The notes under the pieces are model-generated. The model searched no databases. It worked only from the letters and a program-made list of their open reading frames with translations, and was not told the origin of the DNA. Below, piece by piece: positions 1 through 62,349 of a DNA stretch of 64,000 bases (positions are counted from its first letter, which is position 1; each line of letters starts with the position of its first letter). This DNA comes from an uncultured Gemmatimonadaceae bacterium (GTDB taxonomy: Bacteria; Gemmatimonadota; Gemmatimonadetes; Gemmatimonadales; Gemmatimonadaceae): positions 96,001-160,000 of the forward strand of contig CAWHHI010000009.1 in the NCBI GenBank assembly GCA_963829055.1. The letters are read 5' to 3'. The position numbers and the translations under genes were made by a program.

Positions 1-1137
1 TCACGAGGTTCCCCACACCTCACCGAAGACGCGCATCCAGTTCCCGCCGATGATCTTCTCGACGCGCGTCGCCGAGTGCCCGCGTGTCAGAAGCTGGTCG
101 GCGATCAGCTCCAGCCGCCGCGGCGTGTTGAGGTCCTTCACGAACATGTAGTCCTCCTCGCGCGGCGCGGCGATGCCACGCTGCTTGCGGCCTTCCACGA
201 AGCGACGGTGCTTCGTCTCGTACTCCGCGTTCACGACGTGCGGCGTGATCGAGAGATCGCTGCCGATCCCGACGTGGTCCTCGCCGCAGACCTTGACCGC
301 GTACTCGATCTGCTTGATGAGGTCCGCCGCCATCGGCTGCCCCTGCGCGTTGAGGAACGGCATCATGTAGATCCCGATCACACCGCCCTTGTTCGCCAGC
401 GCGCGCAGGATGTCGTCCGTCTTGCTGCGCGGATGATCGAACACGCCGCGGCAGCCGCTGTGCGTGATCGCCACCGGTCTGGATGACGTGGCGATGCCGT
501 CGGCCGTCGTCTGCAGCCCGCAGTGGCTCAGATCCACCAGCATGCGCAGCTCGTTCATCCGCGCGACCACATCTCGGCCGTGACGACTCAGGCCCGCGTT
601 CGCCGGCTCCAGGCAGCCGTCGCCGAGGAGGTTGCGGTCGTTGTAGGTGAGCTGGATGATGCGGACGCCGAACCGTTGGAAGACGTCGAGGTTCGCCGCG
701 TCGCCCTCGAGCATCGTCGCGTTCTGGAATCCGTAGATGAGCCCGAGGCGCCGCGTCTCCTTCGCGCGATGGAGATCGGCGACGGAGTAGATCTTCATGA
801 GGACGTCGGGATGCGCCTGGAGCTCGCGCTCCCAGTATCCCATGTCGCGGAACGTCGCCGCGACGTTAGGCGCGCTGCTCACGGTCAGGTTCACGGCCGT
901 GATGCCCGACGCTTTCGCGTTGGCGACCATCTCGGGCGTGAGCGGGTTGGCGGTGGCATCCGGCGTGTTGAACGGCCCCGGACTCGCGAGGCAGTCGATG
1001 GCTACCGCGCGCTCGTAGCCCGGCCACCCCGACGACACCCGCTCGGCGGCAGCACCGCGCGCTTCGCGACCGAGGAGCACCGCTCGTGGCGCAAGCGCTG
1101 TTACTCCGGCGAGTTTGGTGAAATCACGGCGATGCAT
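1..1137 (-). CDS. Membrane dipeptidase (peptidase M19 family), Tat-exported
   Basis: Tat signal MHRRDFTKL; M19 motifs IIQLTYN, LVDLSHCG, ITHSGC, HPRSKTD, DHVGIGSD, KIIGGNWMRVF. Confidence 0.85.
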   Translation of the reverse strand: MHRRDFTKLAGVTALAPRAVLLGREARGAAAERVSSGWPGYERAVAIDCLASPGPFNTPDATANPLTPEMVANAKASGITAVNLTVSSAPNVAATFRDMGYWERELQAHPDVLMKIYSVADLHRAKETRRLGLIYGFQNATMLEGDAANLDVFQRFGVRIIQLTYNDRNLLGDGCLEPANAGLSRHGRDVVARMNELRMLVDLSHCGLQTTADGIATSSRPVAITHSGCRGVFDHPRSKTDDILRALANKGGVIGIYMMPFLNAQGQPMAADLIKQIEYAVKVCGEDHVGIGSDLSITPHVVNAEYETKHRRFVEGRKQRGIAAPREEDYMFVKDLNTPRRLELIADQLLTRGHSATRVEKIIGGNWMRVFGEVWGTS

Positions 1138-1168
1138 GGACGAATCACTCCGCGTGTGTGGAGACGAT

Positions 1169-3556
1169 CTACTTCAGCCCCGCGCGCCGCAGCATCGCCT
1201 GAAAGCGTGCGTCCGACCGGAGTGGCGCGAGACGGTTGTCGACGTTCATATAGGCGAGGATCGCCGCATTCGACGTGAAGCCGCGCTCGAGCCACGCGAT
1301 GGCTCGGTCGGCGTCGCCCATCGCGGCGTACATCTGAGCCGGCACCCGCTCGTCCAGGTAATGCTCGCGCGCCGCCGCCTCCACCAGTGCTGCCTCTCGC
1401 TTCGCTTCCGTTCCGCGCCCCAGCCGCGCGAGCGCCGCCGCCATGTGTGCGTGCGTCACCGGCGTTGGGTCGGCCTCGTGTCGGAGCGTGTCGACGAGTG
1501 CGGCGTACTGCCCGTTCGCGAACATCAGGTGCATGCGACAGCGATGGCCGACCGCCGCGGTGACGTCGCCCGCCGACGCGCAGGCCGCGTTCGCGTCGGC
1601 GAGCCGGCCAGCATAGACGAAGTTGACCGGCGCCCAGTAGGCGAGGAACTGTGACAGGGGGTCGATTCGGAACGCGCGATGGAGCACCGCCGCGGCCGAA
1701 TCCGGCCGGCCGGTGGCCGACAGGATGTTGGAGTAGCCCGTTGCCGCGTCCACGAGCGTCGAGTCGAGGGCGAGCGCGCGCACCCACTCGCGCTCGCCCT
1801 CGGCGTAGTCGCGGTCGTAGTAGGCCAACAGCGATGCATGCTGCGCGTGTGCGTCGGCAAGCGTGGAGTCGATGGCGAGCGCGCGCGCGACGGCCGTGCG
1901 GATGTGCGGCAGCGCCTCCGTCGCCGGAACGAAATCGTCGGCCAATCGGATCCACGCCTCTCCGAGTCCGCTCCAGGCGGCGGCGTACGTCGAGTCGAGA
2001 GCGAGCGCTTGCTCGTAGAGTGCGACGGAGCGGCGCAGCGATGGCCCGGTGTACACGTCGGCCAGGTACTGCGCGCGCAGCACGAGATCGTGCGCCTCGG
2101 CGCTCTCCGTGCCCTGACGCGAAGGTCGAAGCGTGCCGGCGAACCTAACGCTCAGCGCCGACGCGATGGCTCGTGCGACTTCGTCCTGGACGCGGAAAGC
2201 GTCCTTCATGTCGCGCGCGTACGTCTCGCTCCAGAGCTGCGTGCCATCGGTCACGTCCACGAGCTCCACCGACAGGCGAAGCTGCTGACCTTGCCGCCGT
2301 ACTCGGCCCGCGAGTACGGAACCCACGTTCAGTCGCCGGCCCGCGTCGCGCACGTCCACCCGACCGCGCGTATCGATGAGCGAAGCCGCGCTCCGCGATG
2401 CGACACGCAGTCCCGGTACTCGTGCCAGGGCGCCCGTGACTTCGTCTGTCATGCCGGCGGCGAAGTACGCGTTGGCCGTATCGCCCCCAACGTCTACCAG
2501 CGGCAATACCGCAACCGACTTCGCCGGCGCCGCGGTAGTGGCCGCGAGTGGAGCAGGTGAGGAAGCATCGCGCCGCAGGAGAATGGTGGTGGCACTCACC
2601 GCGACCACCACTAGCGCAGCCGCGGCCCCCCACCTGAGCCAGCGCCGCGGCCGAGGGAGGCTGACGCGCGATACCAACTCGGTGGGTGTGGTAACCGCTT
2701 CGAGCTCGGCGAGCACTTCGTCTCCGGACTGCGGCCGGTCAGCGGGGTGCTTCTCGAGCAGGCGCATAACGAGTACCGACAGCCGGTCGGGTACATTGGC
2801 TCGGCGGTTCGAGAGCGGCTCGGGGGCCTCCGTCGCGTGCGCCGCCACGAGCGCCTGCATCGAACGCCCGACGTACGGATGAGTTCCGGCGATGAGCTCG
2901 TAGGCGATCACGCCGAGTGCGTAGAGGTCTGCTCGATGATCGGCCGTGGAGTCACCGAGTGCCTGTTCGGGCGCCATGTAGGCTGGCGTCCCGAGTGCGA
3001 CACCGGCCGACGTCAGCGCTCCGTATCCGTCGGTGCCGCCGTCGGTCGCCGCGACGAGCGCTTTGGCGATGCCGAAGTCGGCGACGAGCGCGTCACCGTC
3101 CTCACCGAGCAGGATGTTCTCCGGCTTGACGTCGCGGTGGACGACGCCGCGCCGGTGCGCGTACGCGAGCGCCCGTGCCACGTCACGCAGTACCCGTACG
3201 ACGACACCAATCGGGAGCGCACCATCGCGGGCGAGGCGGCCGCGGAGGGTCTCGCCCGCGACGAACGGCATCGTATAGTACAGCAGGCCGTCGCTCTCTC
3301 CGGCGTTGAGCAGCGGAACGACGTGCGGGTGCTGGAGGCCGGCGGCCAGCTGGACCTCTCGTCGAAACCGCTCGGCGCTCACGAGCCCCAATGTCTCGGG
3401 CGGCAGCACCTTGACCACCACACGACGTCCGAGAGTAGTCTCGACGGCCATGAAGACGCGGCTCATTCCCCCGCCACCGAGCTCTCGCTCGATGGAGTAG
3501 GTACTACCGAGCGTTGTCCGGAGGTGCTCCCCCAGGTCGTTCTTCATGGCCCGCAC
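1169..3556 (-). CDS. Ser/Thr protein kinase with TM helix, TolB-like domain and TPR repeats
   Basis: ELGGGGMSRVF, VVVKVL, HRDVKPEN, DFGIAK, GTPAYMAPE; TM WGAAAALVVVAV; KSVAVLPL..GMTDEV..RVASRS; TPR-like C-terminus. Start may be the ATG at 3547. Confidence 0.9.
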   Translation of the reverse strand: MRAMKNDLGEHLRTTLGSTYSIERELGGGGMSRVFMAVETTLGRRVVVKVLPPETLGLVSAERFRREVQLAAGLQHPHVVPLLNAGESDGLLYYTMPFVAGETLRGRLARDGALPIGVVVRVLRDVARALAYAHRRGVVHRDVKPENILLGEDGDALVADFGIAKALVAATDGGTDGYGALTSAGVALGTPAYMAPEQALGDSTADHRADLYALGVIAYELIAGTHPYVGRSMQALVAAHATEAPEPLSNRRANVPDRLSVLVMRLLEKHPADRPQSGDEVLAELEAVTTPTELVSRVSLPRPRRWLRWGAAAALVVVAVSATTILLRRDASSPAPLAATTAAPAKSVAVLPLVDVGGDTANAYFAAGMTDEVTGALARVPGLRVASRSAASLIDTRGRVDVRDAGRRLNVGSVLAGRVRRQGQQLRLSVELVDVTDGTQLWSETYARDMKDAFRVQDEVARAIASALSVRFAGTLRPSRQGTESAEAHDLVLRAQYLADVYTGPSLRRSVALYEQALALDSTYAAAWSGLGEAWIRLADDFVPATEALPHIRTAVARALAIDSTLADAHAQHASLLAYYDRDYAEGEREWVRALALDSTLVDAATGYSNILSATGRPDSAAAVLHRAFRIDPLSQFLAYWAPVNFVYAGRLADANAACASAGDVTAAVGHRCRMHLMFANGQYAALVDTLRHEADPTPVTHAHMAAALARLGRGTEAKREAALVEAAAREHYLDERVPAQMYAAMGDADRAIAWLERGFTSNAAILAYMNVDNRLAPLRSDARFQAMLRRAGLK

Positions 3557-3990: not shown

Positions 3991-4188
3991 CGCTGCATGG
4001 ATCAAGTCGCTGGGTTCGGGGCGGCAAGGCACGATGTGATTCTCGTCCGACCGATGAGGCTGTCCAGTGACACGTGACCGCGCGCGCTTTTCTTCTCACC
4101 GACCAATCCCGGATTGGACTCGAGGGCGGCCGGTCCACTGGCCGCCCTCGAACCACCGAGACCCATGCCTAACGAACTGCGGTACGGT

Positions 4189-5372
4189 TCAGAATGGGCT
4201 GGGAGTCAGCAGCTGTCCTTCGGCTACTGGACTGATCGTGAACACGCGAGAGGCGCTGCCCGTCTTTCCAGCGTTGTCGGTGACGCGCGCCGTGGCCGTG
4301 ACCGTCGTCTTGCCATCCGGCAGGATGAACGAGCCACCCGCGACCCAGCTCGCCGTCGTGGTGACGATGCCATTGCCGCGATGATCCAGCGTGCTGCCCG
4401 CGATGTCGAACGCGGGCGCCAGATTCTGGCCGGCCGGGACGATGACGCCGTTCCCGCGCTTGAAGTCGACGTCGAACGTGAGGCTCAGGCCGCGGAAGTT
4501 GCGATTCTCGCCCGTGCCGCCGAACTGGCTGCCGTCGCGGATGAGTCCCACCGTGGGGCTGATGCCTTCCCCGTTCTCGTTGACGCCGATGCCAGCGCCG
4601 CTGCGATCGGACGCCGAGATCTGGAAGAACAGGAAGGACGGGGTCGTGGCCGTGCCCGTGCCTAACGCCAGGCTCGACTGGTCACGCGGGCCGACCAGCG
4701 TCACTTCGGGTCCGTCAATGTCGTCCAGGCCATCTCCGCCAAGCAGTTCTGGCGACGCGGGCGTCAGCGCCTGTCCGCTCGTGCCGTGCTTGTCGACCTT
4801 CACCTTCACCACATCCGTGCTGATATGGCCCGCCGCGTCGCGCACGCTCGCCGTGATGTTGAAGCTCTTCACGTCCTCGCCGAACGACTCGAGCACGTGC
4901 CAGCCGGTCCAGATCGTCACACCGGCGCCCGGCGAGTCATCGGAGCCGAGGGTGTTGAAGAGGTTCGCCAGGTTGGTGTTCTTGGGGATGATGCTGCCGT
5001 CCGGCTTGATCATGTCTTCGTCAATGAAGACGCTGAGGCCCGGGAAGTTGGGGTTGGCTTGTCCCAGGAGGTCCGTGTTGCGGATGTTGATGCTCTCGTT
5101 GGCGGCAACATCGGCCGCGTCTTTCGTCACGGTCTCGATGATGATCGTGAACGCCGATCCACCGGCGGGCGACCCCTGTTCCGTAGGCGCCCTTCACCAC
5201 CGGCCACGACGTCGTTGGTGACCGGGGAGGTGATTCGTACGACCGGACCATTCGATTCGATCACGCCGCCGTCGCCGTTTCCTGGCGCGGTGACTGGCTT
5301 GCTGTAGTCCTGACACGCGGCCGCCGCGGCGGCTGCAGCAATCAGGACGAGTTGCTTCGTGGTGACCCGCAT
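4189..5372 (-). CDS. Uncharacterised lipoprotein with two tandem homologous beta-rich domains (frameshifted near 5130-5200)
   Basis: Lipobox AAAAC-QD in ORF 5127..5372 joins ORF 4189..5130; internal repeat NPNFPGLS..NLANLF / NRNFRGLS..NLAPAF. Confidence 0.65.
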
Positions 5373-5602: not shown

Positions 5603-5920
5603 TATGGCGGCGAGCAGACAGTGCGTGCACCGCGCCTGGTATGACAACCATGCCGCGTCAGGTGGGGCGCGGCTGCATACGGATGAGCGCGCCTAACGCT
5701 GATCGACCCGATGGGGCGCGCCTCGCGCGGGCGCCCGTTTCAGGTTCACGCGCGTTCGAAGCGTCTCCGCGTCACTCGGCGTTGCGAGGCGGACACCATG
5801 CGTCACGCCGTCGCCGCAAGCACGCTGAAGCCGCAGAACGGAACGCGGCCTTCCAATTGGTCATGTCGCCGTCGCTGTAGTGCGGTAGGTTGAACACGTG
5901 CTTTCCCGGGTGATGACCAC

Positions 5921-8900
5921 GTGACTCGTACGCCTCTCTTCTCGCTCTCGATCGCGAGCATCCTGTTCGCATCCCTCGTCGGCCCTCATGCGACGCAGCC
6001 CATCGAGCCACGCCTCCTGGCCGGTCTCACGTGGCGCAACGTCGGCCCCTTCCGCGGCGGGCGAGTCGCCGCCGTGAGCGGCGTGATCGGCCAACCCGGC
6101 GTCTTCTACATCGGACTTCCAGGCGGCGGCGTGTGGAAGACCACGAGCGCGGGGCAGACCTGGTATCCGGTGTTCGACTCCGTCACTGCCGTGTCGTCGA
6201 TCGGCGCCGTGGAGGTCGCGCCGTCGGACCCGAACATCGTGTACGCCGGCACGGGCGATCTGATCACCGGCCTGGGGATCAACGAGGGAAACGGCGTCTA
6301 CAAGTCCACCGACGCCGGCGCGACGTGGCAGCACATGGGGCTCGACGAGACGCAAGCAGATCCCGTCGATGCTCGTCGATCCACGCGATCCGAACGTCGT
6401 GCTCGTCGCCGCGCAGGGCGACGTCCACAAGAAGACGCGACGTCCGCGGCGTGTTCCGCTCCACCGACGGCGGGCGGACGTGGACGAAGACGCTGTACGT
6501 GGACGACGAGACCGGCATCCAGAAGCTCGCGCGCGCGTTCGACGTGCCTAACGTGATCTTCGCGACGACCGTGCCGCACTACCAGTCGCCGACGCCGAGG
6601 CCTCGCCCGGCGGCGGATACAGGCCGGACCGGGACCGCGCTGTACAAGTCGACCGACGGCGGCGTCACCTGGAAGGAGATCACCGGCGGCGGACTGCCGC
6701 GCATGCGGGGACGCACGTCGATCGCCGTCGCGATGAACACGAACGCGCAGCGGGTGTTCATCATCACGAACTTGGGGCTCTGGCGCTCCGACGACGGCGG
6801 CACCACGTGGCGCCAGATGGCCGCGGACGATCGAGCGCATTCGCAACGGCCAGGGCGGCTACAACTGCGGCGTCTACGTCGACACGAAGAATCCCGACAT
6901 CGTCTACACGATCAGCACGACGAGCTACAAGTCCACCGACGGCGGCAAGACGTTCACCGGCTTCAAGGGCGGCTACAGCGGCGACGACCCGCAGCAGATG
7001 TGGATCGACCCCACGGACAGCAAGCGCATGCTCGTCGGCTTCGATCAGGGCGCGGTCGTGACGCTCGACGCCGGCGCGACGTGGAGCTCGTGGTACAATC
7101 AGTCCACGGAGCAGATCTATCACATCTCCACCGACAACTCCTATCCGTACTGGATCTACGCGACGCAGCAGGACGCCGGCGCCATCCGCACGCGGAGCCG
7201 CGGCAACCTCGGCGCAATCACTCCGCTGGACTGGAGTCCCGTGCCGGGATGGGAGTGGGGCACGATCGTCGCCGATCCGCTCGATCCTAACGTGGTGTAC
7301 GGGAGCGGGAACGGCATCGTGAAGATCACGTATCCGAGCGAGCAGTGGATCGACGTGAGCCCGGGCGTCGGATCCGAGCCTCGGCGCTGCAGGCAGGGCA
7401 TCTCGGAGCCGATCGTGTGGGCGCCGTGGAACCAGCGCGAGCTGCTCGCGGGATTCCAGTATCTCATGGCCACGACCGACGGCGGCGTGCACTGGCGCAA
7501 GCTGAGCCCCGACCTCGGGCGTTCCGCCTAACGACTCGACGTGCGCGCGCGGCACCGGTCCGCGCCCGCCTGGCGGCGTGATCGAGTCGATCTCCCGTCC
7601 ACCGTGGCGCGCGGGCACGATCTGGGTCGGCACGAACAACGGGCTGATCAAGCTCACGCGGGACGACGGGGAAGACGTGGACCGACGTGTCGATCCCGGA
7701 TCTGCCGACGCCGAGACGTGCGATCATCGCGTACGTCGACGCGTCGCATCACGACGCCGGCACGGCGTACGTGGCGGTGGATCTCCACAACCCCGGCGAC
7801 TACGCGCCGTATCTGTACCGAACGCGCGACTTCGGGAAGACGTGGACGAGGATCGTGACCGACCTCCCGACCGGGCAGCCGAGTGGGAGCTTCGCGCGCG
7901 CGATCCGCGCGGACACGAAGAGGGCAGGGCTCCTGTTCGCGGGAACGGAGAGCGGGATGTACGTGTCGTTCGACGACGGCGACCACTGGCAACCGCTGGG
8001 CGGATCTGCCTAACACGTCGTACCGCGACATCGCGATCAAGGGCAACGACCTCATCGTCGCGACGTATGGCCGCGGCCTCTGGGTGCTCGATGACATCTC
8101 GATGCTCGGCAGCTCGACGCCGGCGGTGGCGAGCGAGCCCGCGCATCTGTTCAAGCCGGGCGACGCGGTGCGGGTGCGCCGCAACGTGAACGCGAACACG
8201 CCGTTCCCGAAGGAGGTGCCGCACGCGCTCAACCCGTCGGGTGGCGTGATGATCGACTACACGCTCGCGCTCGGCGCCGCAGGGCGAGATCACGCTCGAC
8301 GTGCTGGACGCGTCTGGTGCGGTCGTCAGGCACATGTCGAGCGGGCCGGCGCATCCGGTGCCTGAGGCGGCGAGGCCGACGCTGCCCAACTTCTGGGAGG
8401 CGTCGCCGCTCGTGCTGCCGACGAAGGTCGGGGCGAACCGCGTGAGCTGGGATCTCAGGTACGACGCGCCGCCGGTGTTCGCGCACACGTTCGAGCTCAG
8501 CGCCAATCCGGGGCTGACGCCACCGTCGCCGGAGGGGCCGCTCGTGCTTCCGGGAACGTACACGGTTCGCCTGACGGTGGATGGACGGGCGTACACGCAG
8601 ACGGTTGCGGTGCGGCCGGATCCGAGGTCGGCGGCGACGCCTGCCGCGCTACAGGCGCAGCATGTGCTGGTCATGAAGCTCGTAAAGGGGATGAGGGTGA
8701 CGTTGGAGGGGTATCAGCAGGCTTCCACGCTTCGAGATGCGGCGCATCGGGCCGTGCCACCTAACGCGAGTACGGAAGTGACGGCGGCGCTCGCCGCTCT
8801 GGATGCGGCGATTGACTCCGTGACAGGCGATACGGCTGCGGCTCGAGCCTTCCACCTTGCGGGCGGTCCTGCGCCTGCGCCCAGATTCGTGGACGTGAAT

Positions 8901-9131
8901 GTCGCGCTGGCCTCCCAGCTCCTGGCACAGGACTACGCTGATCTCGCGCCAACGCCGGCGATGCTGGCGGGATTGGCGAAGACCTGTGCCGCGTTAGGGA
9001 CGACGGTGCGCAACTGGCAACGCGTGGTCACGCGCGACGTTCCTGCTTTCAGCGCGGTGCTCCGGCGAAATCAGATGGCGAATGTCCTGGCGACGCCCAG
9101 CCCGGTCGCGGCGCCCGAGTGTGGGGGCTAG
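5921..9131 (+). CDS. Secreted VPS10/sortilin-like BNR-repeat protein (glycosyl hydrolase-like), multiple frameshifts
   Basis: Signal peptide; WRNVGPFRGGRV, GGVWKTTSAGQTW, repeated YKSTDGG.TW Asp-boxes, GRGLWVLDD, G.NRVSWDLRY, PGTYTVRLTVDG spread over successive frames. Confidence 0.85.
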
Positions 9132-17527: not shown

Positions 17528-17545
17528 CGCCTCCGGGATCGACGC

Positions 17546-29328: not shown

Positions 29329-30485
<1,157 letters not shown>

Positions 30486-42766: not shown

Positions 42767-42812
42767 GCTGTACCTCGATTGGCGTGGGCCTGCTGCTGCA
42801 AACGATCCGTGC

Positions 42813-46108: not shown

Positions 46109-46118
46109 CCGAACCGCG

Positions 46119-52979: not shown

Positions 52980-53187
52980 AACTCGCACGGTCTCCTCGGC
53001 ACATACCATAGGGCGCGGTCCGCGGCGGCCGACGCCTAACGTTTGGCGCCGGGCCGCTGGCCGGGCGTGAGCACAGCCGCCCGCAGGGTCGGCGGGGACC
53101 AGTGACGTCCGATGCGCGAGGGCGTCGGAGACAGTATGTTCTCGTCTCCGACGCCCCACCGCCATCGATGATGCCAGGACACCCGCC

Positions 53188-56424: not shown

Positions 56425-57345
56425 ATGACGACGCGCAGAGAAGCCATTGGCATCCTTGGATCGATCTCGGTCGGATCGCTGTTGGCAGTACCGAAGCTCG
56501 GACTCGCGTCATTGATCGCGCCGCAATCGGGCGCGTCATCGTTACAGCGCGATTCCACGCCGCCGCTCGCGCCGGGCGCGCCGACGTCCCCGGAGCGGCT
56601 CGCGCTCATCGACGCCTTCAAGAAGTCGTCTGACGGAATCCCGCAGAAGTTCGAGGCGCGAACTCACAAGAGCGAGTGGACGATGCCGTACCGCCTGTTC
56701 CGGCCTAACGTGACCGGCAAGCTGCCGCTCGTGCTGTATCTGCACGGCAGCGGCGGATCCGGCGACGACAACCAGAAGCAGCTGGGACTCGGCAACATCT
56801 TCGGCACGCGCGTGTGGGCGCTTCCGGAAAACCAGAAGACGTTCCCGTGCTACGTCGTCGCCCCGCAGACCGACCGGGGCTGGATGAACTACGGCCCACC
56901 CAGCCCCGGCGACTCGGTGGCGAGGCTCATCCCCGGGTTGGGCGACGGCGCCCGCGTCGCGTTCGAGCTCGTGGACGCGCTGCGCAGGGAGCTCGACATC
57001 GACGAGCGGCGCATCTACATCACCGGACAGTCGATGGGCGGCGGCGGTGTGTGGCACATGACCGCGCATCGCCCGCGCTTTTTCGCCGCGGCGGTCACCT
57101 GCTGCGGCAGTGCGACGCGCGAGGACGCCACGCAATCAGCCGCGACGCCGGTGTGGAACTTCCACGGCGACGCCGACAAGACCGTTCCTCTCGCCGTGTC
57201 GCGCGACCGCATCGCCGCACTGAAGAAGGCGGGCAGCCACCCACTGCACACGGAGTACGCCGGCGTCGGCCACAACTCCTGGGAGTGGGCGTACACCGAG
57301 CCAGCGCTGGTCAGATGGATGTTCTCCAACCGCCGGCCAGCCTGA
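56425..57345 (+). CDS. Tat-exported alpha/beta hydrolase (predicted peptidase/esterase)
   Basis: TRREAI; PYRLF, LYLHGSG, ITGQSMGG, FHGDADKTV, VGHNSW. Confidence 0.85.
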   Translation: MTTRREAIGILGSISVGSLLAVPKLGLASLIAPQSGASSLQRDSTPPLAPGAPTSPERLALIDAFKKSSDGIPQKFEARTHKSEWTMPYRLFRPNVTGKLPLVLYLHGSGGSGDDNQKQLGLGNIFGTRVWALPENQKTFPCYVVAPQTDRGWMNYGPPSPGDSVARLIPGLGDGARVAFELVDALRRELDIDERRIYITGQSMGGGGVWHMTAHRPRFFAAAVTCCGSATREDATQSAATPVWNFHGDADKTVPLAVSRDRIAALKKAGSHPLHTEYAGVGHNSWEWAYTEPALVRWMFSNRRPA

Positions 57346-57406
57346 TCGCGCGACGAGCATAACGCGCGATCGGCGTCGCGTGCGATCGGCCGAACGCAGG
57401 CCATGC

Positions 57407-58258
57407 CTAACGCGGACGACGCTCCGCCACGACGATCCGCATGATTCGCCCCGCTCGCGTGTTCACCGTGCCCGTCGCGTAACGCCTCGCCCAATCCTCG
57501 ACGCCGGAATCATCGGCCACCTGGAACCCGGCGGCGCGGAGGTCCGCCGCCATCTCCTCGGCTGACCACTTGCTCTTCGCCGGCTCGCCCAGCAGACGCA
57601 GCAGCAATGCCGCGAAGCCCCGCCGCATTTCCGTATGGTAGTTCACGATCAGCGTCGACCCCTCGGCGCTTCGCGACGCGACATTGGCGAGCGTCGACTT
57701 CATCGCGTCGTGCGTGAGATACATGACGACGCCTTCCCAGATCCAGCACGTTGGACGCGCCGCATCGTGGCCGGCACGCGCGAGCGCGGTGTCCAGCGAC
57801 TCACGCTCGAAGTCCACCGGCACGAACGTCACCTCGGCGATCGCGTGCGGAAGCCTGTCGAGATGCGCGCGCTTCACCGCCTGCGTCGCGGGGTGATCGA
57901 CCTCGAACACGCGGACGCCCGCGAGCTCGCTCATACGCCAGGCACGCCCGTCCAATCCCGCGCCGAGGATGACCAGCTGCGCCGTACCGCGTGTAACTGC
58001 CGCCTGCACGGCTGCATCAATGGTTGCCGTCCGCAGGGCCATCATGTCCGCCGATACACGCGCGGCCGCGAGCGTCACGCTCTCGCGACCGCTCCGTACC
58101 TGCTGCTCGATCTTCTCCAGTCGCCTTAGCCACTTCGCGTTCAGAAAGACCCGCGCGGTGGGATCGCGGAAATCGCGCACGTGCGACGCGCCCACATCCG
58201 CGACGGCGCGCATGTAGGCGACCATCATCGCAGTCCTGCTGGCGCGCTCCGCGATCAC
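57407..58258 (-). CDS. SAM-dependent methyltransferase (LCM/leucine carboxyl methyltransferase-like)
   Basis: ASRTA, QLVILGAGLDGRAWR, VFEVDHPATQ, VPVDF, WEGVVMYL. Confidence 0.88.
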   Translation of the reverse strand: MIAERASRTAMMVAYMRAVADVGASHVRDFRDPTARVFLNAKWLRRLEKIEQQVRSGRESVTLAAARVSADMMALRTATIDAAVQAAVTRGTAQLVILGAGLDGRAWRMSELAGVRVFEVDHPATQAVKRAHLDRLPHAIAEVTFVPVDFERESLDTALARAGHDAARPTCWIWEGVVMYLTHDAMKSTLANVASRSAEGSTLIVNYHTEMRRGFAALLLRLLGEPAKSKWSAEEMAADLRAAGFQVADDSGVEDWARRYATGTVNTRAGRIMRIVVAERRPR

Positions 58259-58265
58259 GGTCGGA

Positions 58266-59564
58266 TCACTGCTCAGCCTCCGGAGCGGCCGTGACCACAC
58301 TTGGTCCGCGCATCGTGGCCGATGAGAACACGAACAACGCGGCGGCCGAGAGTCCGAGGACGAACATCGTCGTCCATGTCGTTGGCGCCCCGACGCGGTC
58401 GAGCAGGAACGCGCCGAGCCACGGGCCGACGATCAGCGCCAACGACATGGAGCTGCTGAACATGCCCATGTACTCGCCCGTCTTTCCGGGCGGCGCCAGC
58501 GCGGCCACGTAGGCGACGCTCGTCGGGAAGAAGATCATCTCCCCGAACGTCCAGATGATGACGGTGATCGCGATCGGGATCGTGGTGGTGGCTATCGCGA
58601 GTCCGCCGAATCCGACGGCGAACAGTCCCGTCGCGAGCGCGATGGCGATGCGCGTCGTCCAGTGCGACATCGCGATGTTGAGCGGAACCTCGATCGCGAC
58701 GATGACGAGCGTGTTCAGCACGAACAGCCCGCCGTAAAACGACTCGCGGTAGTGCAGGTCGCGCACGAGGTACAGCGGCATCGCGCCCTGGTGCTGCGAG
58801 AACACGATGTTCACCAGAAACGCCGTCGCGAAGAACAGCATCGCGGTGCGGTCGTGCCAGACGAGCGATGGCGCGAAGCGACCCTGTTTATTCGTCGGAT
58901 GCTCGGCGCTGTGCGCACGCGGTGGGGCGAGCAGGTGGCGGTTCCTCGAGAGCAGCACCGTGAGAACGGTGGCCGCGGCCAGGGACGTGAGCCCGTCCAC
59001 GACGAAGAGCAGCGGGAACGACACGACGGCGAGAAACCCGCCCACGGCCGGTCCGATGCTCATGCCGAGATTGACCGCGAGTCGATTCACGGCGATCGCG
59101 GCCTTTCGGCGATCGGGCGTCGTCGATCCGGTAAGAATGGACATCGTCGCCGGACGAGCGGCATCGGCGACCACCGCCCAGAGAAACGTGAGTCCGACGA
59201 CGACGATGAAGTCCTTCGCGAGCGGTATGATGAGCAGGACGACGCCTGTGAGCGCGAGCGACGCCCGGAGGACGACGAAGGGCCCCACGCGGTCCGCGAG
59301 CCGCCCGGCGATCGGCGCGGTGACGAGTCCGCCGACGCCGTACGCGCTGACGGCGAGCCCGGCGACCGATGCGGAGATCCCCAGGTATCTCGTGAGATAG
59401 AGCACGAGAAACGGCACGGCCATCATCCCCGCGCGATTGACGAACGTCGTCGCGGCAATGATCCAGACTTCGGCCGGGAGTCCGCGAAGACCGCGGTACG
59501 GATTCGGGAGTGCCAGGGTCAGCCTAACGCCGTGAGTCCGGAAGGAGTGTGCCCACGCCATCAC
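58266..59564 (-). CDS. MFS transporter
   Basis: GRLADRVG motif A, about 12 hydrophobic segments, NLGMSIGPAVGG; start uncertain. Confidence 0.88.
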   Translation of the reverse strand: MMAWAHSFRTHGVRLTLALPNPYRGLRGLPAEVWIIAATTFVNRAGMMAVPFLVLYLTRYLGISASVAGLAVSAYGVGGLVTAPIAGRLADRVGPFVVLRASLALTGVVLLIIPLAKDFIVVVGLTFLWAVVADAARPATMSILTGSTTPDRRKAAIAVNRLAVNLGMSIGPAVGGFLAVVSFPLLFVVDGLTSLAAATVLTVLLSRNRHLLAPPRAHSAEHPTNKQGRFAPSLVWHDRTAMLFFATAFLVNIVFSQHQGAMPLYLVRDLHYRESFYGGLFVLNTLVIVAIEVPLNIAMSHWTTRIAIALATGLFAVGFGGLAIATTTIPIAITVIIWTFGEMIFFPTSVAYVAALAPPGKTGEYMGMFSSSMSLALIVGPWLGAFLLDRVGAPTTWTTMFVLGLSAAALFVFSSATMRGPSVVTAAPEAEQ

Positions 59565-59670
59565 TCGCTGCCGGCGACGGGAGGCCGAGACTCGTCGTTG
59601 GTCTCAACGTCCAAGATCTCGATGGTGCTGCTGGCAATCAAGCGTGGCGAATCACTCCACCACGCCGCCA

Positions 59671-62349
59671 CTACTCCGTGGCGAGGGCACGCGCGGGCGT
59701 CACGCGCATCGCGCGCCGCGCCGGAACGAAGGTGGCGACCAACGCGACGCCAAGCAACGTCGCCACGACCATCAACAGGGTCGCCGGGTCCTGCGTCGCC
59801 ACGCCGTACAGCTGATCGCGCAGGAGGCGCGCGGTCCCCAGCGAGAGCAGGCTCCCCACCAGCGCGCCCCACACGATCGGCCTCAGCCCTCGGCTCAGCA
59901 CGAGGCGCCAGATGTCGCCCGGTGTTGCCCCGAGTGCCATCCGGACGCCGATCTCTCGAGTCCGTTGGCTCACGAAATAGCCGACCACGCTGTAGACCCC
60001 GACGCTCGCCAGCGCTAGCGCCAGCACACCGAGCGTCGTGAGCAACAGCGTGTTGAACCGCGTGGTTGCCACGGATTTCGAGAGCACGTCTTCCATCGTG
60101 CTCTGGTCGACGAGCGGGAGCGACGGGTCGATTCGCATCACGGCCGCCTGCAGCGCGCGCGTCAGAGTCTCTGGCGGTGGCACTGTTCGCGCGACGAGGA
60201 CCAGCGAGCGCGATGTCGCGCGCCACATGCCTGGCGAGGTCTGCGTGAACGGCATGTACAGTGTTGGTGTCGCGGCCAGGTTCAACCCCGCGCTGTGCAC
60301 GTCCGCCACCACGCCGACGACTGTCATCCAGTTCGGCGTGTTGCGGTCGTCGCGCATGGCGTCGAACCGCTTGCCGACGGCTCGCTGGCCGGGCCACAGT
60401 GCCCGCGCCAGTGACGTGCTCACGATCGCGACCGGAATGGCGCCGGCGTCGTCCGTGCGCGCGAAGTCGCGTCCATCGAGGAGCGACATGCCCATCACCG
60501 CGAAGTAGTCCGGCGACGCGTACCGGATGTCCACGTCCACCTGTTCGTCCGGTAGTTGCTTCCCGTCCGGCAGGATGCGCGTGGAGAGGATGCCACCCGC
60601 CAGCGGCACCGCCGACACCAGCGCCGCGCGCTGAACGCCCGGGACTTCCGCAGCCGCGTCCCGGATCTGCTGGTACGTCTGCGTCGTGCGCGCCGCGTCG
60701 GCGTAGCGCACCGCGGGCAACACGAGACGTCCCGTCATGACGTGCGACGCCGTGAACCCTGGATCGACACGCTGCAGGTGCCACGCGGTCCGGATCAGGA
60801 GACCGGATCCAACGAGCAGCGTCATGGCCAGCGCCACCTCGGCCGCCACGAGCAGGGCGCGGAGCCCCTCGCGCGCCGCGCCGGCACTCGAACCGCGGGC
60901 GCCGTCACGCAGCGCTGATTGCAGCGCGGGGCTCGCGCTGCGGACCGCCGGCACGAGCCCGACGAGCACGCTGCTCACGAGCGCCACGCCTAACGTGAAC
61001 AGCAGGACGACGCCGTTCACCCGCGCCTGATCGACGCGCGGCACGTCCTCCGGCGCGAGCGCGACGAGCCCTTTCACCAGACCGAACGCGACGATCACAC
61101 CGAGCACGGCGCCGCCGAGTGCGAGGACGAGACTCTCGACGAGCAGTTGACGGACGATGCGGCCGCGCCCGGCACCTAACGCCGCACGGATCGCCAGCTC
61201 GCGCGACCGGACGGTGCCGCGCGCCAGCAGGAGATTCGCGACGTTCACGCAGGCGATGAGCAGCACGAACCCCACGGCGCCGGACAGCACGAGCAGTCGT
61301 TCGCGGAAGCCGCCCACCACGCCGTCGATGTAGCGTCGCACCACGGCGCCCATCGCGGGCGAGGCGCCGGGCGTCCGCGCCGCCACGAGCTGAATGGCGG
61401 CGCGTGCCGCGTCGGTGGCCTGGGCGAGCGTCACGCCTGGCGCCAGGCGCGCCGTCAGGCGCAGCCAACGCCCGCCTTCCGTGGTCAACTGCTGGGTGGT
61501 CAGCCGTCTCGGCGCCCACAGATCGTTGTCGGTACCCGTCGCGTCGAACGCCGCGGGCATCACGCCGATCACCGTGTACTGCTCGTCATTGAGTCGGATC
61601 GTGCGTCCGACGACGGACGTGTCCGAGTTGAAGTGACGTGTCCAGAGCCGGTGGCTCATGAGCACGACATGCGGCGCCCCCGGCACATCGTCGCTCGGAA
61701 GGAAGCCGCGACCGAGCACCGGAGGGACGCCAATCACGCGAAAGAAGTCGCCGGTGACGAGAACGCCATTGACGAGCTGCGGCGCTCCCATCCCGGTGAG
61801 CGTGAACCCTCCACCGCCACTGGCGGCGGCGACGTACGCGAACGCGTCGCGCCGATCACGGAGCGCCGCGAACTCCGCGCCTGACGCGATCTCTTCGATT
61901 ACGCCGCGCCGCGTCGGCTGCACCTGAACGACGCGATCCGCGTCGGCGAACGGCAGCGGATGCAGCACGACGGCGTAGAGCACACTGAACACCGCCGCCG
62001 TGGCCCCAATGCCAAGTGCCAGCGTGAGCGTTGCGGTGGCGGTGAAGCCGCGCGCACGGCGAAGCTGACGCAGCGCGAACGTGAAATCCTGCTTCAACTC
62101 GCTGAGGTACTCCGCGCGTGACCGGTTGCGGTCGCGTTGCCGCCCATAGTGACGGCACTCCGCAGCGACGACGGCGAAGTCGCCGAAGCGTCGAACGGCC
62201 TCGGCCCGAGCATCGTTAGGCGCCATGCCGTCGGCGATCAGCATCTGGATCACCATGTCGACGTGGAACGCGAGCTCCGTGTCGACCTCCTCCTCGAGGC
62301 GCGGGCGCTTGAGGAAGGACCATGGCGAGCGGCGAGGGGCGCGGCTCAT
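59671..62349 (-). CDS. ADOP-type duplicated MacB/FtsX ABC permease
   Basis: EEEVDTELAFH, TLALGIGAT, LLIACVNVANLLL, RELAIRAALGA, QRTREIGVRMALGA, PARRAMRV. Confidence 0.92.
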   Translation of the reverse strand: MSRAPRRSPWSFLKRPRLEEEVDTELAFHVDMVIQMLIADGMAPNDARAEAVRRFGDFAVVAAECRHYGRQRDRNRSRAEYLSELKQDFTFALRQLRRARGFTATATLTLALGIGATAAVFSVLYAVVLHPLPFADADRVVQVQPTRRGVIEEIASGAEFAALRDRRDAFAYVAAASGGGGFTLTGMGAPQLVNGVLVTGDFFRVIGVPPVLGRGFLPSDDVPGAPHVVLMSHRLWTRHFNSDTSVVGRTIRLNDEQYTVIGVMPAAFDATGTDNDLWAPRRLTTQQLTTEGGRWLRLTARLAPGVTLAQATDAARAAIQLVAARTPGASPAMGAVVRRYIDGVVGGFRERLLVLSGAVGFVLLIACVNVANLLLARGTVRSRELAIRAALGAGRGRIVRQLLVESLVLALGGAVLGVIVAFGLVKGLVALAPEDVPRVDQARVNGVVLLFTLGVALVSSVLVGLVPAVRSASPALQSALRDGARGSSAGAAREGLRALLVAAEVALAMTLLVGSGLLIRTAWHLQRVDPGFTASHVMTGRLVLPAVRYADAARTTQTYQQIRDAAAEVPGVQRAALVSAVPLAGGILSTRILPDGKQLPDEQVDVDIRYASPDYFAVMGMSLLDGRDFARTDDAGAIPVAIVSTSLARALWPGQRAVGKRFDAMRDDRNTPNWMTVVGVVADVHSAGLNLAATPTLYMPFTQTSPGMWRATSRSLVLVARTVPPPETLTRALQAAVMRIDPSLPLVDQSTMEDVLSKSVATTRFNTLLLTTLGVLALALASVGVYSVVGYFVSQRTREIGVRMALGATPGDIWRLVLSRGLRPIVWGALVGSLLSLGTARLLRDQLYGVATQDPATLLMVVATLLGVALVATFVPARRAMRVTPARALATE

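What the first reader, a model, noticed from the sequence alone, without database searches (positions are those of the whole stretch)
865..62220. Highly iterated non-palindromic motif CCTAAC(G), about once per kb, embedded in genes through rare codons
Seen: by eye I count 63 copies, 35 as CCTAAC and 28 as GTTAGG on +, e.g. 865, 2144, 4168, 4661, 5692, 6547, 7286, 7527, 8009, 8760, 8993, 10901, 12352, 15415, 17157, 17523, 20274, 21778, 23183, 31150, 34863, 37340, 40133, 43668, 47496, 52253, 56704, 61175, 62215. About 55 are the 7-mer CCTAACG, against a rough zero-order expectation of about 7 at ~69% GC. Other CTAA/TTAG contexts are rare (about 10). The motif is encoded in several frames using codons that high-GC genomes avoid: CCT-AAC (Pro-Asn, 865), GTT-AGG (Val-Arg, 2144), TTA-GGC (Leu-Gly, 4661, 54463), CTA-ACG (37340). 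It supplies the stop codon of four genes (17523, 42812, 46118, 57406) and overlaps the terminator loop at 40133. Established: cyanobacterial HIP1, Neisseria/Haemophilus uptake sequences and Chi are comparable genome-wide motifs; Chi and KOPS are strand-polarised, which this is not. Inference: a lineage-specific self-marking signal (DNA uptake, nucleoid-protein site, or modification/repair-driven motif). I do not know of a description for this group.
Basis: partly seen in the sequence, partly recalled or inferred. Interest (0 to 1): 0.88.

Follow-up and report, generated by a model that had tools for sequence, protein, structure and literature searches.

The report
Genome-wide GCCTAACG word in Gemmatimonadaceae
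A soil bacterium of the family Gemmatimonadaceae has written one eight-letter DNA word about once per thousand bases all through its genes, against its own codon habits, much like the self-tags that some bacteria use when they take up DNA, and the word is the same as the swap point of integron gene cassettes; what reads it is still unknown.

Summary
The window holds 63 CCTAAC (35 on +, 28 on -) and 55 CCTAACG, against 6.6 and 3.0 in dinucleotide shuffles. The full word is GCCTAACG. The 7.78-Mb genome has 5,004 copies, 38-49 times Markov expectation and about 12 times a synonymous-codon shuffle.

- **Origin and distribution:** Copies arose by substitution, not insertion. They show no strand polarity, are spaced more evenly than chance, and are missing from six islands.
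- **Conservation:** Between species they are conserved twice as well as control words.
- **Not an artefact:** Fragmented assemblies of sister species and contigs of four independent runs carry them.
- **Taxonomic spread:** The trait is patchy within Gemmatimonadaceae and nearly absent from the rest of the phylum.
- **Integron link:** The word equals the R' core of the order's integron attC sites.

No reader was found. DNA methyltransferases, Vsr, IntI, ComEA, PilM, ComEC, a pilin and a small GIY-YIG nuclease do not track the trait.

My best guess (0.4) is a DNA-uptake or recombination tag spread by molecular drive. Library searches found no description of it.

The parts
865..870 (-). GCCTAACG; CCT-AAC Pro-Asn in gene 1-1080(-)
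2144..2149 (+). ACCTAACG; GTT-AGG Val-Arg in gene 1169-3556(-)
4168..4173 (+). GCCTAACG; intergenic; same letters in a 661-nt contig of run X1
4661..4666 (+). GCCTAACG; TTA-GG Leu-Gly in gene 4189-5130(-); same letters in a contig of run X1
5692..5697 (+). GCCTAACG; intergenic
6547..6552 (+). GCCTAACG; CTA-AC Leu in gene 5921-6556(+)
7286..7291 (+). TCCTAACG; Pro-Asn in gene 6998-7531(+)
7527..7532 (+). GCCTAACG; gives the TAA stop of gene 6998-7531(+)
8009..8014 (+). GCCTAACA; gives the TAA stop of gene 7687-8013(+)
8760..8765 (+). ACCTAACG; Pro-Asn in gene 8301-9131(+)
8993..8998 (-). CCCTAACG; Leu-Gly in gene 8301-9131(+)
9709..9714 (+). GCCTAACA; Leu-Gly in gene 9141-10115(-)
10901..10906 (+). 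GCCTAACG; Pro-Asn in gene 10202-10999(+)
12352..12357 (-). CCCTAACG; CTA Leu in gene 11385-13850(-)
12798..12803 (+). GCCTAACG; Val-Arg in gene 11385-13850(-)
14133..14138 (+). GCCTAACA; gives the TAG stop of gene 14134-14694(-)
15415..15420 (-). GCCTAACG; Pro-Asn in gene 15082-15639(-)
16751..16756 (+). GCCTAACA; intergenic by my calls
17157..17162 (+). ACCTAACG; intergenic by my calls
17523..17528 (+). GCCTAACG; gives the TAA stop of gene 17243-17527(+)
17916..17921 (-). ACCTAACG; CTA Leu in gene 17546-18598(-)
18759..18764 (+). GCCTAACG; intergenic
19385..19390 (-). GCCTAACG; CTA Leu in gene 19231-19953(-)
20274..20279 (+). ACCTAACG; Val-Arg in TonB receptor gene 20115-22904(-)
20790..20795 (-). 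ACCTAACA (only copy with neither consensus flank); Pro-Asn in gene 20115-22904(-)
21778..21783 (+). ACCTAACG; Leu-Gly in gene 20115-22904(-)
21903..21908 (-). GCCTAACG; Pro-Asn in gene 20115-22904(-)
22567..22572 (-). ACCTAACG; CTA Leu in gene 20115-22904(-)
23012..23017 (+). GCCTAACG; Val-Arg in gene 22979-24208(-)
23183..23188 (-). ACCTAACG; Pro-Asn in gene 22979-24208(-)
23189..31149 (.). 7,961 bases without any copy; G+C 0.727 at 24001-28000; kinase, LysR and aldo/keto reductase genes; probably younger DNA
31150..31155 (-). GCCTAACG; intergenic
31372..31377 (-). CCCTAACG; intergenic
31639..31644 (+). TCCTAACG; Leu-Gly in gene 31473-32969(-)
33036..33041 (+). GCCTAACG; intergenic
33579..33584 (+). 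GCCTAACT; Leu-Gly in gene 33053-34954(-)
34863..34868 (-). GCCTAACG; CTA Leu in gene 33053-34954(-)
35101..35106 (-). GCCTAACG; intergenic
36282..36287 (+). GCCTAACA; Pro-Asn in gene 35682-38792(+)
37340..37345 (+). GCCTAACG; CTA-ACG in gene 35682-38792(+)
38854..38859 (-). GCCTAACG; Leu-Gly in gene 38849-40096(+)
39787..39792 (-). GCCTAACC; Leu-Gly in gene 38849-40096(+)
40133..40138 (-). ACCTAACG; in the loop of a 10-bp G+C-rich hairpin (40122-40147) between convergent genes
40499..40504 (-). GCCTAACG; Val-Arg in weakly called gene 40328-40705(+)
41648..41653 (+). GCCTAACG; Val-Arg in gene 41363-42766(-)
42812..42817 (+). GCCTAACG; gives the TAG stop of gene 42813-44876(-)
43363..43368 (-). 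ACCTAACG; CTA Leu in gene 42813-44876(-)
43668..43673 (-). GCCTAACG; Pro-Asn in gene 42813-44876(-)
45406..45411 (-). GCCTAACG; CTA Leu in gene 44961-45494(-)
46118..46123 (-). GCCTAACG; gives the TAA stop of gene 46119-46553(-)
47496..47501 (+). GCCTAACG; Leu-Gly in gene 46706-48118(-)
48237..48242 (-). GCCTAACG; intergenic
48605..48610 (+). GCCTAACG; intergenic
50049..50054 (-). GCCTAACG; Leu-Gly in gene 48772-51597(+)
51728..51733 (-). GCCTAACG; Leu-Gly in gene 51690-52886(+)
52253..52258 (-). GCCTAACG; Leu-Gly in gene 51690-52886(+)
53035..53040 (+). GCCTAACG; intergenic
54463..54468 (-).
56704..56709 (+). GCCTAACG; Pro-Asn in gene 56425-57345(+)
57406..57411 (+). GCCTAACG; gives the TAG stop of gene 57407-58258(-)
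59523..59528 (+). GCCTAACG; Val-Arg in gene 58266-59564(-)
60989..60994 (+). GCCTAACG; Leu-Gly in gene 59671-62349(-)
61175..61180 (+). ACCTAACG; Leu-Gly in gene 59671-62349(-)
62215..62220 (-). GCCTAACG; Pro-Asn in gene 59671-62349(-)

Best explanation
GCCTAACG (strict core CCTAAC, with softer G flanks) is a lineage-specific self-tag read on double-stranded DNA by a still unidentified protein. That protein acts in natural transformation, either at DNA uptake or at an early recombination step.

The proposed mechanism is molecular drive. DNA fragments that carry the word are taken up or recombined more often. Alleles that gain the word by point mutation therefore replace alleles that lack it, and the word accumulates about once per kb wherever the protein sequence tolerates it, overriding codon bias.

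**Shown here:**
- the word's abundance, its origin by substitution, its conservation, even spacing and strand symmetry
- its absence from young islands and its patchy distribution across the family
- a full core competence gene set in this genome

**Inferred, not shown:** that transformation is the process, and that uptake or recombination is biased toward the word.
For: **Abundance.** The genome has 5,004 GCCTAACG and 7,103 CCTAAC in 7.78 Mb. It is the top word at k = 6, 7 and 8, at 38-49 times order-1/2 Markov expectation and about 12 times a synonymous-codon shuffle.

**Strand and frame.**
- Both strands are equal: 2,457 against 2,547.
- There is no replichore polarity. On contig C16, the counts are 159/201 before the GC-skew switch and 248/246 after it.
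- Sense and antisense copies are equal (2,344 against 2,437) and all six frames are used.

**Spacing and islands.**
- Gaps under 200 bp number 548, against 1,191 expected.
- Gaps of 400-1,500 bp are in excess.
- Six islands of more than 12 kb have no copy.
- All 20 contigs carry 0.75-1.22 copies per kb.

**Origin by substitution.** Only 2 of 149 orthologous sites show a gap.

**Conservation.**
- 40 of 71 G000 sites are kept in a sister species, against 25-27% of control octamers (binomial p = 1.3e-7).
- 12 of 84 sites are shared with other motif-rich genera, against 0 of 65 with motif-less ones (p = 0.0012).

**Relaxed positions are preferred.**
- 217 of 675 TAA stops and 162 of 1,354 TAG stops lie in the word.
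- The first 60 nt after genes are enriched 2-3 fold.
- Amino-acid identity at motif codons is 0.603, against 0.660 overall.

**Competence genes in G000:** PilM, pilins, a ComEA-like protein, ComEC and DprA. The 12 family genomes without a ComEC match all have few copies, 6-308.

**Published analogues.** HIP1 shows the same kind of conservation (abstract of PMC5861425). It is now argued to be a transformation or uptake tag (abstract and Discussion of PMC13756078).
Against: **No receptor was found.**
- The ComP_DUS family gave no match, though its control rang nowhere either.
- PilM (148/151), ComEA-like (140/151) and ComEC (139/151) occur in rich and poor genomes alike, so they do not explain the on/off pattern.
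- ComEC against motif richness is not significant (p = 0.22).
- A stand-alone pilin tracks the trait only inside one clade and has no orthologue-grade match (at least 95 bits) in the richest genus.

**Features that differ from known uptake sequences.**
- There are no terminator-type inverted pairs: 42 inverted against 68 tandem within 60 bp.
- The two motif-less relatives sampled (200 kb each) have no alternative word, so I saw no dialects.
- Interior one-letter variants are not enriched, with observed/expected of 0.4-1.2 except GCATAACG. By recall, this differs from Haemophilus.

**Other gaps.** Natural transformation has not, to my knowledge, been shown in this family. The identity of the word with the integron core is not predicted by this model unless an extra assumption is added.
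Confidence: 0.4

Rival explanations
1. Integron-linked word. The copies are solitary R-box-like sites for the integron integrase IntI, or for another tyrosine recombinase. They are either selected as landing pads for gene cassettes or are a by-product of integrase activity on near-matching genome sites.
For: **The word is the attC core.**
- CGTTAGGC is the R' end of attC sites in G000's own cassette array next to IntI, at C20:202200-208985.
- The same holds in a motif-poor genome of a sister family. There, 26 copies in 24 kb all lie on one strand and each ends a canonical attC.
- My crude attC test scored 21/27, 6/7, 3/5 and 1/4 words as attC in four such runs.

**It fits the published core.** The word matches the 7-bp core GTTRRRY shared by attI and attC (passages of PMC8876359).

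**Integrases can act genome-wide.** IntI can insert cassettes at double-stranded GWT sites across a genome (passages of bioRxiv 10.1101/2022.09.11.507474).

**Position and variants.** The word is 5-fold enriched at stop codons and 2-3 fold just downstream of genes. The R''-type variant GCCTAACA is 26 times over expectation.
Against: - IntI presence does not track the trait: 14 of 24 genomes with at least 1,000 copies have it, against 74 of the other 127 (odds ratio 1.0).
- The densest genus has only IntI fragments or none, in 3 genomes.
- G000 has no extra IntI-like paralogue beyond IntI, one fragment and two Xer-type genes.
- Only 13 of 5,003 G000 copies look like attC.
- Copies arose by substitution without indels.
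- About two thirds lie inside genes, where cassette insertion would be harmful.
- MAG incompleteness weakens the presence/absence test.
Confidence: 0.2
2. HIP1-type origin. A DNA methyltransferase recognises the asymmetric hexamer CCTAAC, and a methyl-directed mismatch correction converts near-matches into the full word. This is Elhai's model for HIP1.
For: - One-letter deviations are tolerated only at the first and last positions. NCCTAACG gives A 827, C 428, T 132; GCCTAACN gives A 435, C 112, T 79; copies with both flanks off number about 86. The abstract of PMC4390886 reports the same pattern for HIP1.
- Several interior one-off words are below expectation, for example GCCCAACG at 0.61 and GCCTAGCG at 0.52.
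- A 1,060-aa Type IIG/MmeI-like N6-adenine methyltransferase with an NPPW motif, followed by an SNF2 helicase, is present. By recall, such enzymes read asymmetric 6-7-bp sites.
- In the HIP1 study the methyltransferases also failed to correlate with the motif (Discussion of PMC13756078).
Against: - That methyltransferase is single-copy in 141 of 151 family genomes, rich and poor alike.
- On its tree the rich lineages do not group.
- No alignment column separates rich from poor; the largest frequency difference is 0.49.
- G000 gave no match to N6_Mtase, N6_N4_Mtase, C5 DNA_methylase or Vsr.
- The only other methyltransferase, of class D12, is in 77 of 151 genomes and is not found in the densest genus or in G057.
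- The commonest change at non-shared sites is the T/G transversion at position 4, not a deamination-type transition.
- Two motif-less genomes with the same enzyme have no iterated word at all.
Confidence: 0.15
3. Binding sites of a nucleoid-associated or chromosome-organising protein, kept by direct selection on each site. This was once proposed for HIP1.
For: - Spacing is even.
- Sites are conserved.
- Strands are symmetric.
- The abstract of PMC5861425 argued this for HIP1 from periodicity.
Against: - Selection on more than 5,000 separate sites, each against codon bias, is a heavy load.
- No candidate protein was found.
- The trait switches on and off within genera: G066 and G166 have about 4,000 copies, G124 has 66. 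That is hard to square with a core architectural role.
- I did not test periodicity.
Confidence: 0.1
4. Artefact of base-calling or assembly at a modified site, or a polar Chi/KOPS-type signal.
For: G000 is a 20-contig assembly with 1-nt indels relative to other data and split genes.
Against: - Sister species assembled in 260-1,170 contigs carry 2,500-5,100 copies.
- 40 copies sit at orthologous places in G000 and G002.
- Contigs of four runs from four studies carry the same letters. A 661-nt contig has 5 differences, none in the copies at 4168 and 4661. None of the 40 listed differences lies in any of 9 copies, though 215 differences were not shown.
- There is no polarity.
Confidence: 0.02

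Closest known systems
DNA uptake sequences: DUS of Neisseriaceae and USS of Pasteurellaceae
   Same: - A short non-palindromic word at about one copy per kb, on both strands equally.
- Found inside genes in all frames, at less conserved codons, and enriched at gene ends.
- More evenly spaced than chance.
- Missing from young islands.
- Restricted to some lineages of one family.
- Competence genes are present.
   Different: - A different phylum.
- No receptor is known, and biased uptake has not been shown.
- No terminator-type inverted pairs.
- An on/off pattern with one and the same word, rather than dialects.
- Interior one-letter variants are not enriched.
- The word equals the integron core.
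HIP1 and other highly iterated palindromes of cyanobacteria (PMC4390886, PMC5861425, PMC13756078)
   Same: - A hyper-abundant octamer written into genes.
- Conserved between genomes.
- Deviations concentrated at the first and last letters.
- Function long unknown, and now linked to transformation.
   Different: - Not a palindrome.
- No cognate orphan methyltransferases were identified.
- Patchy within one family rather than phylum-wide.
Integron recombination core (GTTRRRY of attC/attI; attG genome sites)
   Same: The letters are identical to the R' core, plus one flanking base, of the order's attC sites. The word also fits the published 7-bp core.
   Different: - 4,990 of 5,003 copies have no attC fold.
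- The copies are not in arrays and arose by substitution.
- Their density does not follow IntI presence.
Chi and KOPS
   Same: An over-represented octamer that could mark self DNA.
   Different: Those signals are polar with respect to replication. This word is not.

Membership tests
DNA uptake sequence (DUS/USS type) | Short word hyper-abundant genome-wide, on both strands equally | tested here: met
   5,004 copies, 2,457 forward and 2,547 reverse, 38-49 times Markov expectation
DNA uptake sequence (DUS/USS type) | Present in coding DNA in all frames, favouring relaxed positions and gene ends | tested here: met
DNA uptake sequence (DUS/USS type) | Spacing more even than random, and lacking from recently acquired DNA | tested here: met
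   548 against 1,191 expected gaps under 200 bp; six empty islands over 12 kb
DNA uptake sequence (DUS/USS type) | Host encodes a type IV pilus, ComEA, ComEC and DprA | tested here: met
DNA uptake sequence (DUS/USS type) | A sequence-specific receptor (ComP-like minor pilin) | tested here: inconclusive
   ComP_DUS gave no match, but its control was silent. One stand-alone pilin is only partly co-distributed.
DNA uptake sequence (DUS/USS type) | DNA carrying the word is taken up or transforms preferentially | not testable with these tools
   needs a bench assay
HIP1-type iterated octamer | Palindromic word | tested here: not met
   GCCTAACG is not its own reverse complement
HIP1-type iterated octamer | Sites conserved between genomes beyond background | tested here: met
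   40/71 against 25-27% for control octamers
HIP1-type iterated octamer | One-letter deviations biased to the first and last letters | tested here: met
   feature taken from the abstract of PMC4390886
HIP1-type iterated octamer | Cognate methyltransferase recognising the inner sequence | tested here: inconclusive
   The only candidates are a universal Type IIG-like enzyme and a D12 enzyme, and neither tracks the trait. Methylation itself was not measurable.
Integron attC site | Core fits GTTRRRY | tested here: met
   GTTAGGC; core definition from PMC8876359
Integron attC site | Imperfect inverted repeat R''-L''...L'-R' able to fold | tested here: not met
   13 of 5,003 G000 copies, against 21 of 27 in a true array
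Integron attC site | Depends on an integron integrase | tested here: not met
   IntI is over cut-off in 14/24 rich genomes and 74/127 others
Chi / KOPS polar signals | Orientation follows the replichore | tested here: not met

The most novel reading that the evidence does not exclude
In some Gemmatimonadaceae the DNA-uptake or early recombination machinery is tuned to the conserved core of integron attC sites. Free integron cassettes would then be the preferred cargo of natural transformation. As a side effect, molecular drive has overwritten the host chromosome with the same word.

This would explain three things:
- why scattered lineages share one identical word instead of dialects
- why motif-poor relatives carry the word almost only in cassette arrays
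- why the word clusters at gene ends

It would tie two separate routes of gene exchange, transformation and integrons, into one system.
Probability: 0.15. Interest if true: 0.92.

Novelty: new variant of a known kind. Interest (0 to 1): 0.8.

Why it matters
Genome-wide self-tags are known from only two proteobacterial families (uptake sequences) and from cyanobacteria (HIP1), and how they arise is still debated. A third, independent case would be useful for several reasons.

- **It is in an uncultured-rich soil phylum** and uses a non-palindromic word.
- **It offers natural experiments.** Examples are G066/G166 against G124, G072/G130 against G134/G076, and G103/G151 against G033.
- **It may link transformation to integrons.** The identity with the integron core raises a testable link between natural transformation and cassette traffic in soil bacteria.
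- **It has practical uses.** The word is a strong marker for binning and for spotting foreign DNA in these genomes. It also distorts codon statistics: rare TTA, CTA, AGG and CCT codons, and a third of TAA stops, come from it.

Tried and rejected
**Polarity in other genera.** The hit lists showed almost only one strand for G065, G123, G165 and G090. Fetched DNA showed 24/36, 31/27, 23/27 and 13/8, so this was a quirk of the listing.

**Candidate readers tested across 151 family genomes, none tracking the trait:**
- Eco57I/Type IIG-like methyltransferase, 141/151
- D12 methyltransferase, 77/151
- ComEA-like HHH_3, 140/151
- PilM, 148/151
- IntI, 88/151 over cut-off
- ComEC, 139/151
- small GIY-YIG nuclease, 23/151, with none in the two congeners sampled

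**Stand-alone pilin at G000:C11:105384-105809.** Matches of at least 95 bits occur in 12 other genomes, all motif-bearing. They include G103 and G151 but not their motif-poor congener G033. However, none of that grade was found in the three sampled genomes of the densest genus or in G065, G123, G165, G072, G130, G057 and G090, and weaker pilin matches are everywhere. It is a lead, not a finding.

**Searches of G000 alone with no match:** N6_Mtase, N6_N4_Mtase, C5 DNA_methylase, Vsr and ComP_DUS. G000 is 86% complete, so absence is not proven.

**Other ideas rejected:**
- Specificity change in the universal methyltransferase: no discriminating column.
- Alternative words ("dialects") in motif-less G068 and G008: none.
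- Footprint of an inserted element: rejected, because sites align without gaps.
- attC singletons: CCTAAC...GTTAGG pairs at 40-150 nt number 81, against 67-91 for the other three arrangements.
- Rfam on the window: nothing.

**Paper searches.**
- A search for the word itself returned one unrelated paper.
- Gemmatimonad plus uptake or transformation terms: none of the papers listed held "gemmatimonad".
- Gemmatimonad plus integron or competence terms: one listed paper holds "gemmatimonad" once, and I did not open it.

**Not done:**
- I did not test periodicity.
- I could not call base modification.
- I could not run a whole-proteome phylogenetic profile.

Full report
**1.
- The window has 63 CCTAAC, 35 on + and 28 on -, and 55 of them are CCTAACG. 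Dinucleotide-preserving shuffles give 6.6 and 3.0, and none of 100 reaches the observed counts.
- Flanking letters show the word is an octamer. The base before the core is G in 46 and A in 12 of 63 copies; the base after it is G in 55.
- In the window, 39 copies are GCCTAACG, 23 have one consensus flank and one has neither. Only 8 other CTAA/TTAG exist.
- The copy at 40133 lies in the loop of a G+C-rich hairpin, which the terminator scan does not call.

**2. The pattern is genome-wide.**
- The window is C9:96001-160000 of a 7.78-Mb, 20-contig, 66.7% G+C assembly.
- The genome holds 7,103 CCTAAC, 6,391 CCTAACG and 5,004 GCCTAACG. This is the most over-represented word at k = 6, 7 and 8, at 38-49 times order-1/2 Markov expectation.
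- With my own dicodon gene caller (7,729 genes, 78% of bases), 1,610 of 6,391 heptamers are intergenic, 2,344 are sense and 2,437 antisense. All six frames are used. The commonest contexts are xCG-TTA-GGx (1,637) and CCT-AAC-G (1,238).
- In 6,510 genes, shuffling synonymous codons leaves 337 copies against 4,050 observed.
- All 20 contigs carry 0.75-1.22 copies per kb.

**3. It is not an artefact.**
- Sister species of the genus are assemblies of 260-1,170 contigs and carry 2,500-5,100 copies.
- 40 copies sit at orthologous places in G000 and G002.
- Twenty public runs from 17 studies hold 34-51% of the sampled words of window 4000-9200.
- Contigs of four of those runs were laid on the stretch. 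A 661-nt contig differs at 5 places, none in the copies at 4168 and 4661. None of the 40 listed differences falls in any of the 9 copies, though 215 further differences were not shown.
- The same runs agree on several 1-nt indels against G000. The assembly therefore has frameshift errors, which explains its split genes.

**4. Anatomy of the word.**
- The core is strict. With the core masked for training, interior one-letter variants sit at 0.4-1.2 of expectation. The one exception is GCATAACG, at 583 against 51.
- Either flank may vary. NCCTAACG gives A 827, C 428, T 132, and GCCTAACN gives A 435, C 112, T 79. Copies with both flanks off are at background, about 86.
- There is no extended consensus.
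- Close pairs are rare and more often tandem (68) than inverted (42) within 60 bp.

**5. Distribution along the chromosome.**
- There is no polarity. On C16, which has a clear GC-skew and gene-orientation switch near 550 kb, the counts are 159/201 before and 248/246 after.
- Spacing is more even than Poisson: 548 gaps under 200 bp against 1,191 expected, with an excess at 400-1,500 bp.
- Six stretches over 12 kb have no copy. The window has an 8-kb one at 23189-31149, with G+C 0.727.
- Copies pile up at gene ends. 217 of 675 TAA stops and 162 of 1,354 TAG stops lie in the word. The last 30 nt of genes hold 260 sense and 196 antisense copies, against about 45-55 per 30-nt bin inside genes. The next 60 nt are enriched 2-3 fold.

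**6. Evolution of the sites.**
- I compared G000 with other genera at about 68% nucleotide identity. Only 2 of 149 motif sites align with a gap, so the copies were made by substitution.
- 12 of 84 sites are shared with motif-rich genera and 0 of 65 with motif-less ones (p = 0.0012).
- I also compared G000 with a sister species over 103 kb aligned at 75% identity or more. 40 sites are shared, 31 are only in G000 and 35 only in G002. Conservation is 56%, against 25-27% for control octamers (p = 1.3e-7).
- The usual alternative words are GCCGAGCG, GCCGAACG, ACCTAACG and GCCTGACG. The commonest difference is T/G at position 4.
- Codons under the word are slightly less conserved than average: 0.603 against 0.660 amino-acid identity.

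**7. Taxonomic spread.**
- Record titles of relatives place the genome in Gemmatimonadaceae.
- In 151 family genomes the count ranges from 1 to 6,360. 24 genomes have at least 1,000 copies. Most have 5-40, below the reversed-word control, which means the word is normally avoided.
- The trait differs within genera: G066 has 3,896 and G166 has 4,141, but G124 has 66.
- I built a tree of a universal single-copy gene for 60 genomes. One clade of 21 rows, which includes the window's genus and the densest genus, has 19 motif-bearing members. Other rich lineages sit among poor ones.
- On that tree, presence/absence needs 13 changes. With three density classes, the well-supported branches alone force at least 7-9 changes for each class. 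This is a single-gene tree made with a quick search.
- In 201 genomes of the phylum, only one genus of a sister family is mildly enriched outside the family, for example 1,061 against 271 control.
- Two motif-less relatives (200 kb each) have no alternative iterated word. A rich genus shares the secondary variant GCATAACG.
- The family and phylum tallies include a few unpublished genomes: G013, G051, G052 and G150; and G207, G236 and G308. No separate claim rests on them.

**8. The integron link.**
- Earlier notes of this scan on other Gemmatimonadaceae genomes said the word equals the integron cassette core. I tested this.
- G000 has an integron integrase at C20:208008-208985. Beside it is a cassette-like array whose attC-like sites end in (C)GTTAGG(C/T) and begin with (G/C)CTAAC(G).
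- In a motif-poor genome of a sister family, 26 CGTTAGGC in 24 kb all lie on one strand, and each is the R' end of a canonical attC.
- A crude attC test scores 21/27, 6/7, 3/5 and 1/4 words as attC in four such runs, but only 13 of 5,003 in G000.
- The word fits the published core GTTRRRY (passages of PMC8876359).
- In poor genomes, therefore, the one-strand runs of the word that I fetched are cassette arrays. In rich genomes the same word is scattered as solitary copies.

**9. The hunt for a reader: methyltransferases, repair and integrase.**
- G000 gave no match to N6_Mtase, N6_N4_Mtase, C5 methylase or Vsr. Its two methyltransferase genes are both frameshifted in this assembly.
- The D12 enzyme is in 77/151 genomes and is missing from the densest genus.
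- The 1,060-aa Type IIG/MmeI-like enzyme with its SNF2 helicase neighbour is single-copy in 141/151. It has no column that separates rich from poor.
- IntI is over cut-off in 14/24 rich genomes and 74/127 others. G000 has no extra IntI-like paralogue.

**10. The hunt for a reader: competence genes and other candidates.**
- PilM, ComEA-like and ComEC are near-universal, and DprA is present in G000. The competence set is there, but it does not explain the on/off pattern.
- The 12 genomes without a ComEC match all have few copies, but this is not significant (p = 0.22).
- A stand-alone pilin is partly co-distributed.
- A small GIY-YIG nuclease is not co-distributed.

**11. Reading.**
- The word behaves like the uptake sequences of Neisseriaceae and Pasteurellaceae, and like HIP1. 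HIP1 is conserved (abstract of PMC5861425), and recent work links it to transformation (abstract and Discussion of PMC13756078; abstract of bioRxiv 2024.09.10.611283).
- I rate a transformation-linked molecular drive as most likely (0.4). An integrase-linked role follows (0.2), then a methylation/repair drive (0.15) and an architectural protein site (0.1).
- The boldest reading still open is that uptake specificity is tuned to the integron core, which would link cassette traffic to transformation.

Noticed in passing
window 46611-46700 and about 480 places in G000: A dispersed hairpin repeat of about 80 nt. It has a palindrome GTAGAGGGCCCTCTAC, then GATTCCTCGAC, a short G+C hairpin, and CTCGGAATGACA, which is sometimes doubled. 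The 12-letter end word occurs 481 times in G000, but only 0-2 copies of its 10-letter end word occur in 60-270 kb samples of six other genomes. Copies at 80-90% identity lie on many contigs of four sister species. On the other strand, its outline (GTCATTCC ... GGAATC around a stem) resembles the NTS/SRM repeats that Ssn nucleases cut in Neisseria (PMC11893778, sections read).
   Followed up: partly
G000:C3:889-1182 (-): A 97-aa single-domain GIY-YIG nuclease gene, possibly Ssn-like. It is found in 23 of 151 family genomes and in none of the two congeners sampled. No copy of the dispersed repeat lies within 4 kb of it.
   Followed up: partly
window 23189-31149: An 8-kb stretch without the word, with G+C up to 0.727. 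It carries two Ser/Thr kinase genes, a LysR regulator and aldo/keto reductase pieces, and is probably recently acquired DNA. Genome-wide, six stretches over 12 kb are empty, for example C6:6854-55038 and C11:7377-44055.
   Followed up: partly
window 14134-14694, 18776-19953, 28341-31118; also 5185, 5188, 6351, 8004, 8107, 8116, 8269: Several genes are split or truncated: an amidohydrolase fragment, a DAO oxidoreductase in two frames, and an aldo/keto reductase in two pieces. Contigs of up to four independent runs agree on 1-nt indels against the window. The assembly therefore carries frameshift errors.
   Followed up: partly
G000:C8:73551-about 80000; intact copy in L176:1794-7249: A 1,060-aa Type IIG/MmeI-like N6-adenine methyltransferase (NPPW motif) overlaps the start of a 758-aa SNF2 helicase (DrmD/DpdE-like). 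The methyltransferase is single-copy in 141 of 151 family genomes at 41-72% identity (one weaker partial match), which is unusual conservation for a restriction-type gene pair.
   Followed up: partly
G000:C20:202200-208985 and G000:C4:2862-3170: A chromosomal integron. The integrase scores just over the curated cut-off (265.7 bits) and lies in the same orientation as a small cassette-like array. A second integrase N-terminal fragment sits at a contig start.
   Followed up: partly
L236-L237 (G021:C95:1-24000): A large integron cassette array in a motif-poor genome of a sister family, with at least 26 attC sites in 24 kb whose arms are well conserved.
   Followed up: partly
G000:C11:105384-105809: A stand-alone type IV pilin gene. 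Its clear orthologues (at least 95 bits) were found in 12 other genomes, all motif-bearing. They include two species of a genus whose motif-poor third species lacks it.
   Followed up: partly
G000:C16 near 540-550 kb: A Xer-type recombinase gene (C16:540795-541592) lies beside the GC-skew and gene-orientation switch that marks the likely replication terminus.
   Followed up: no
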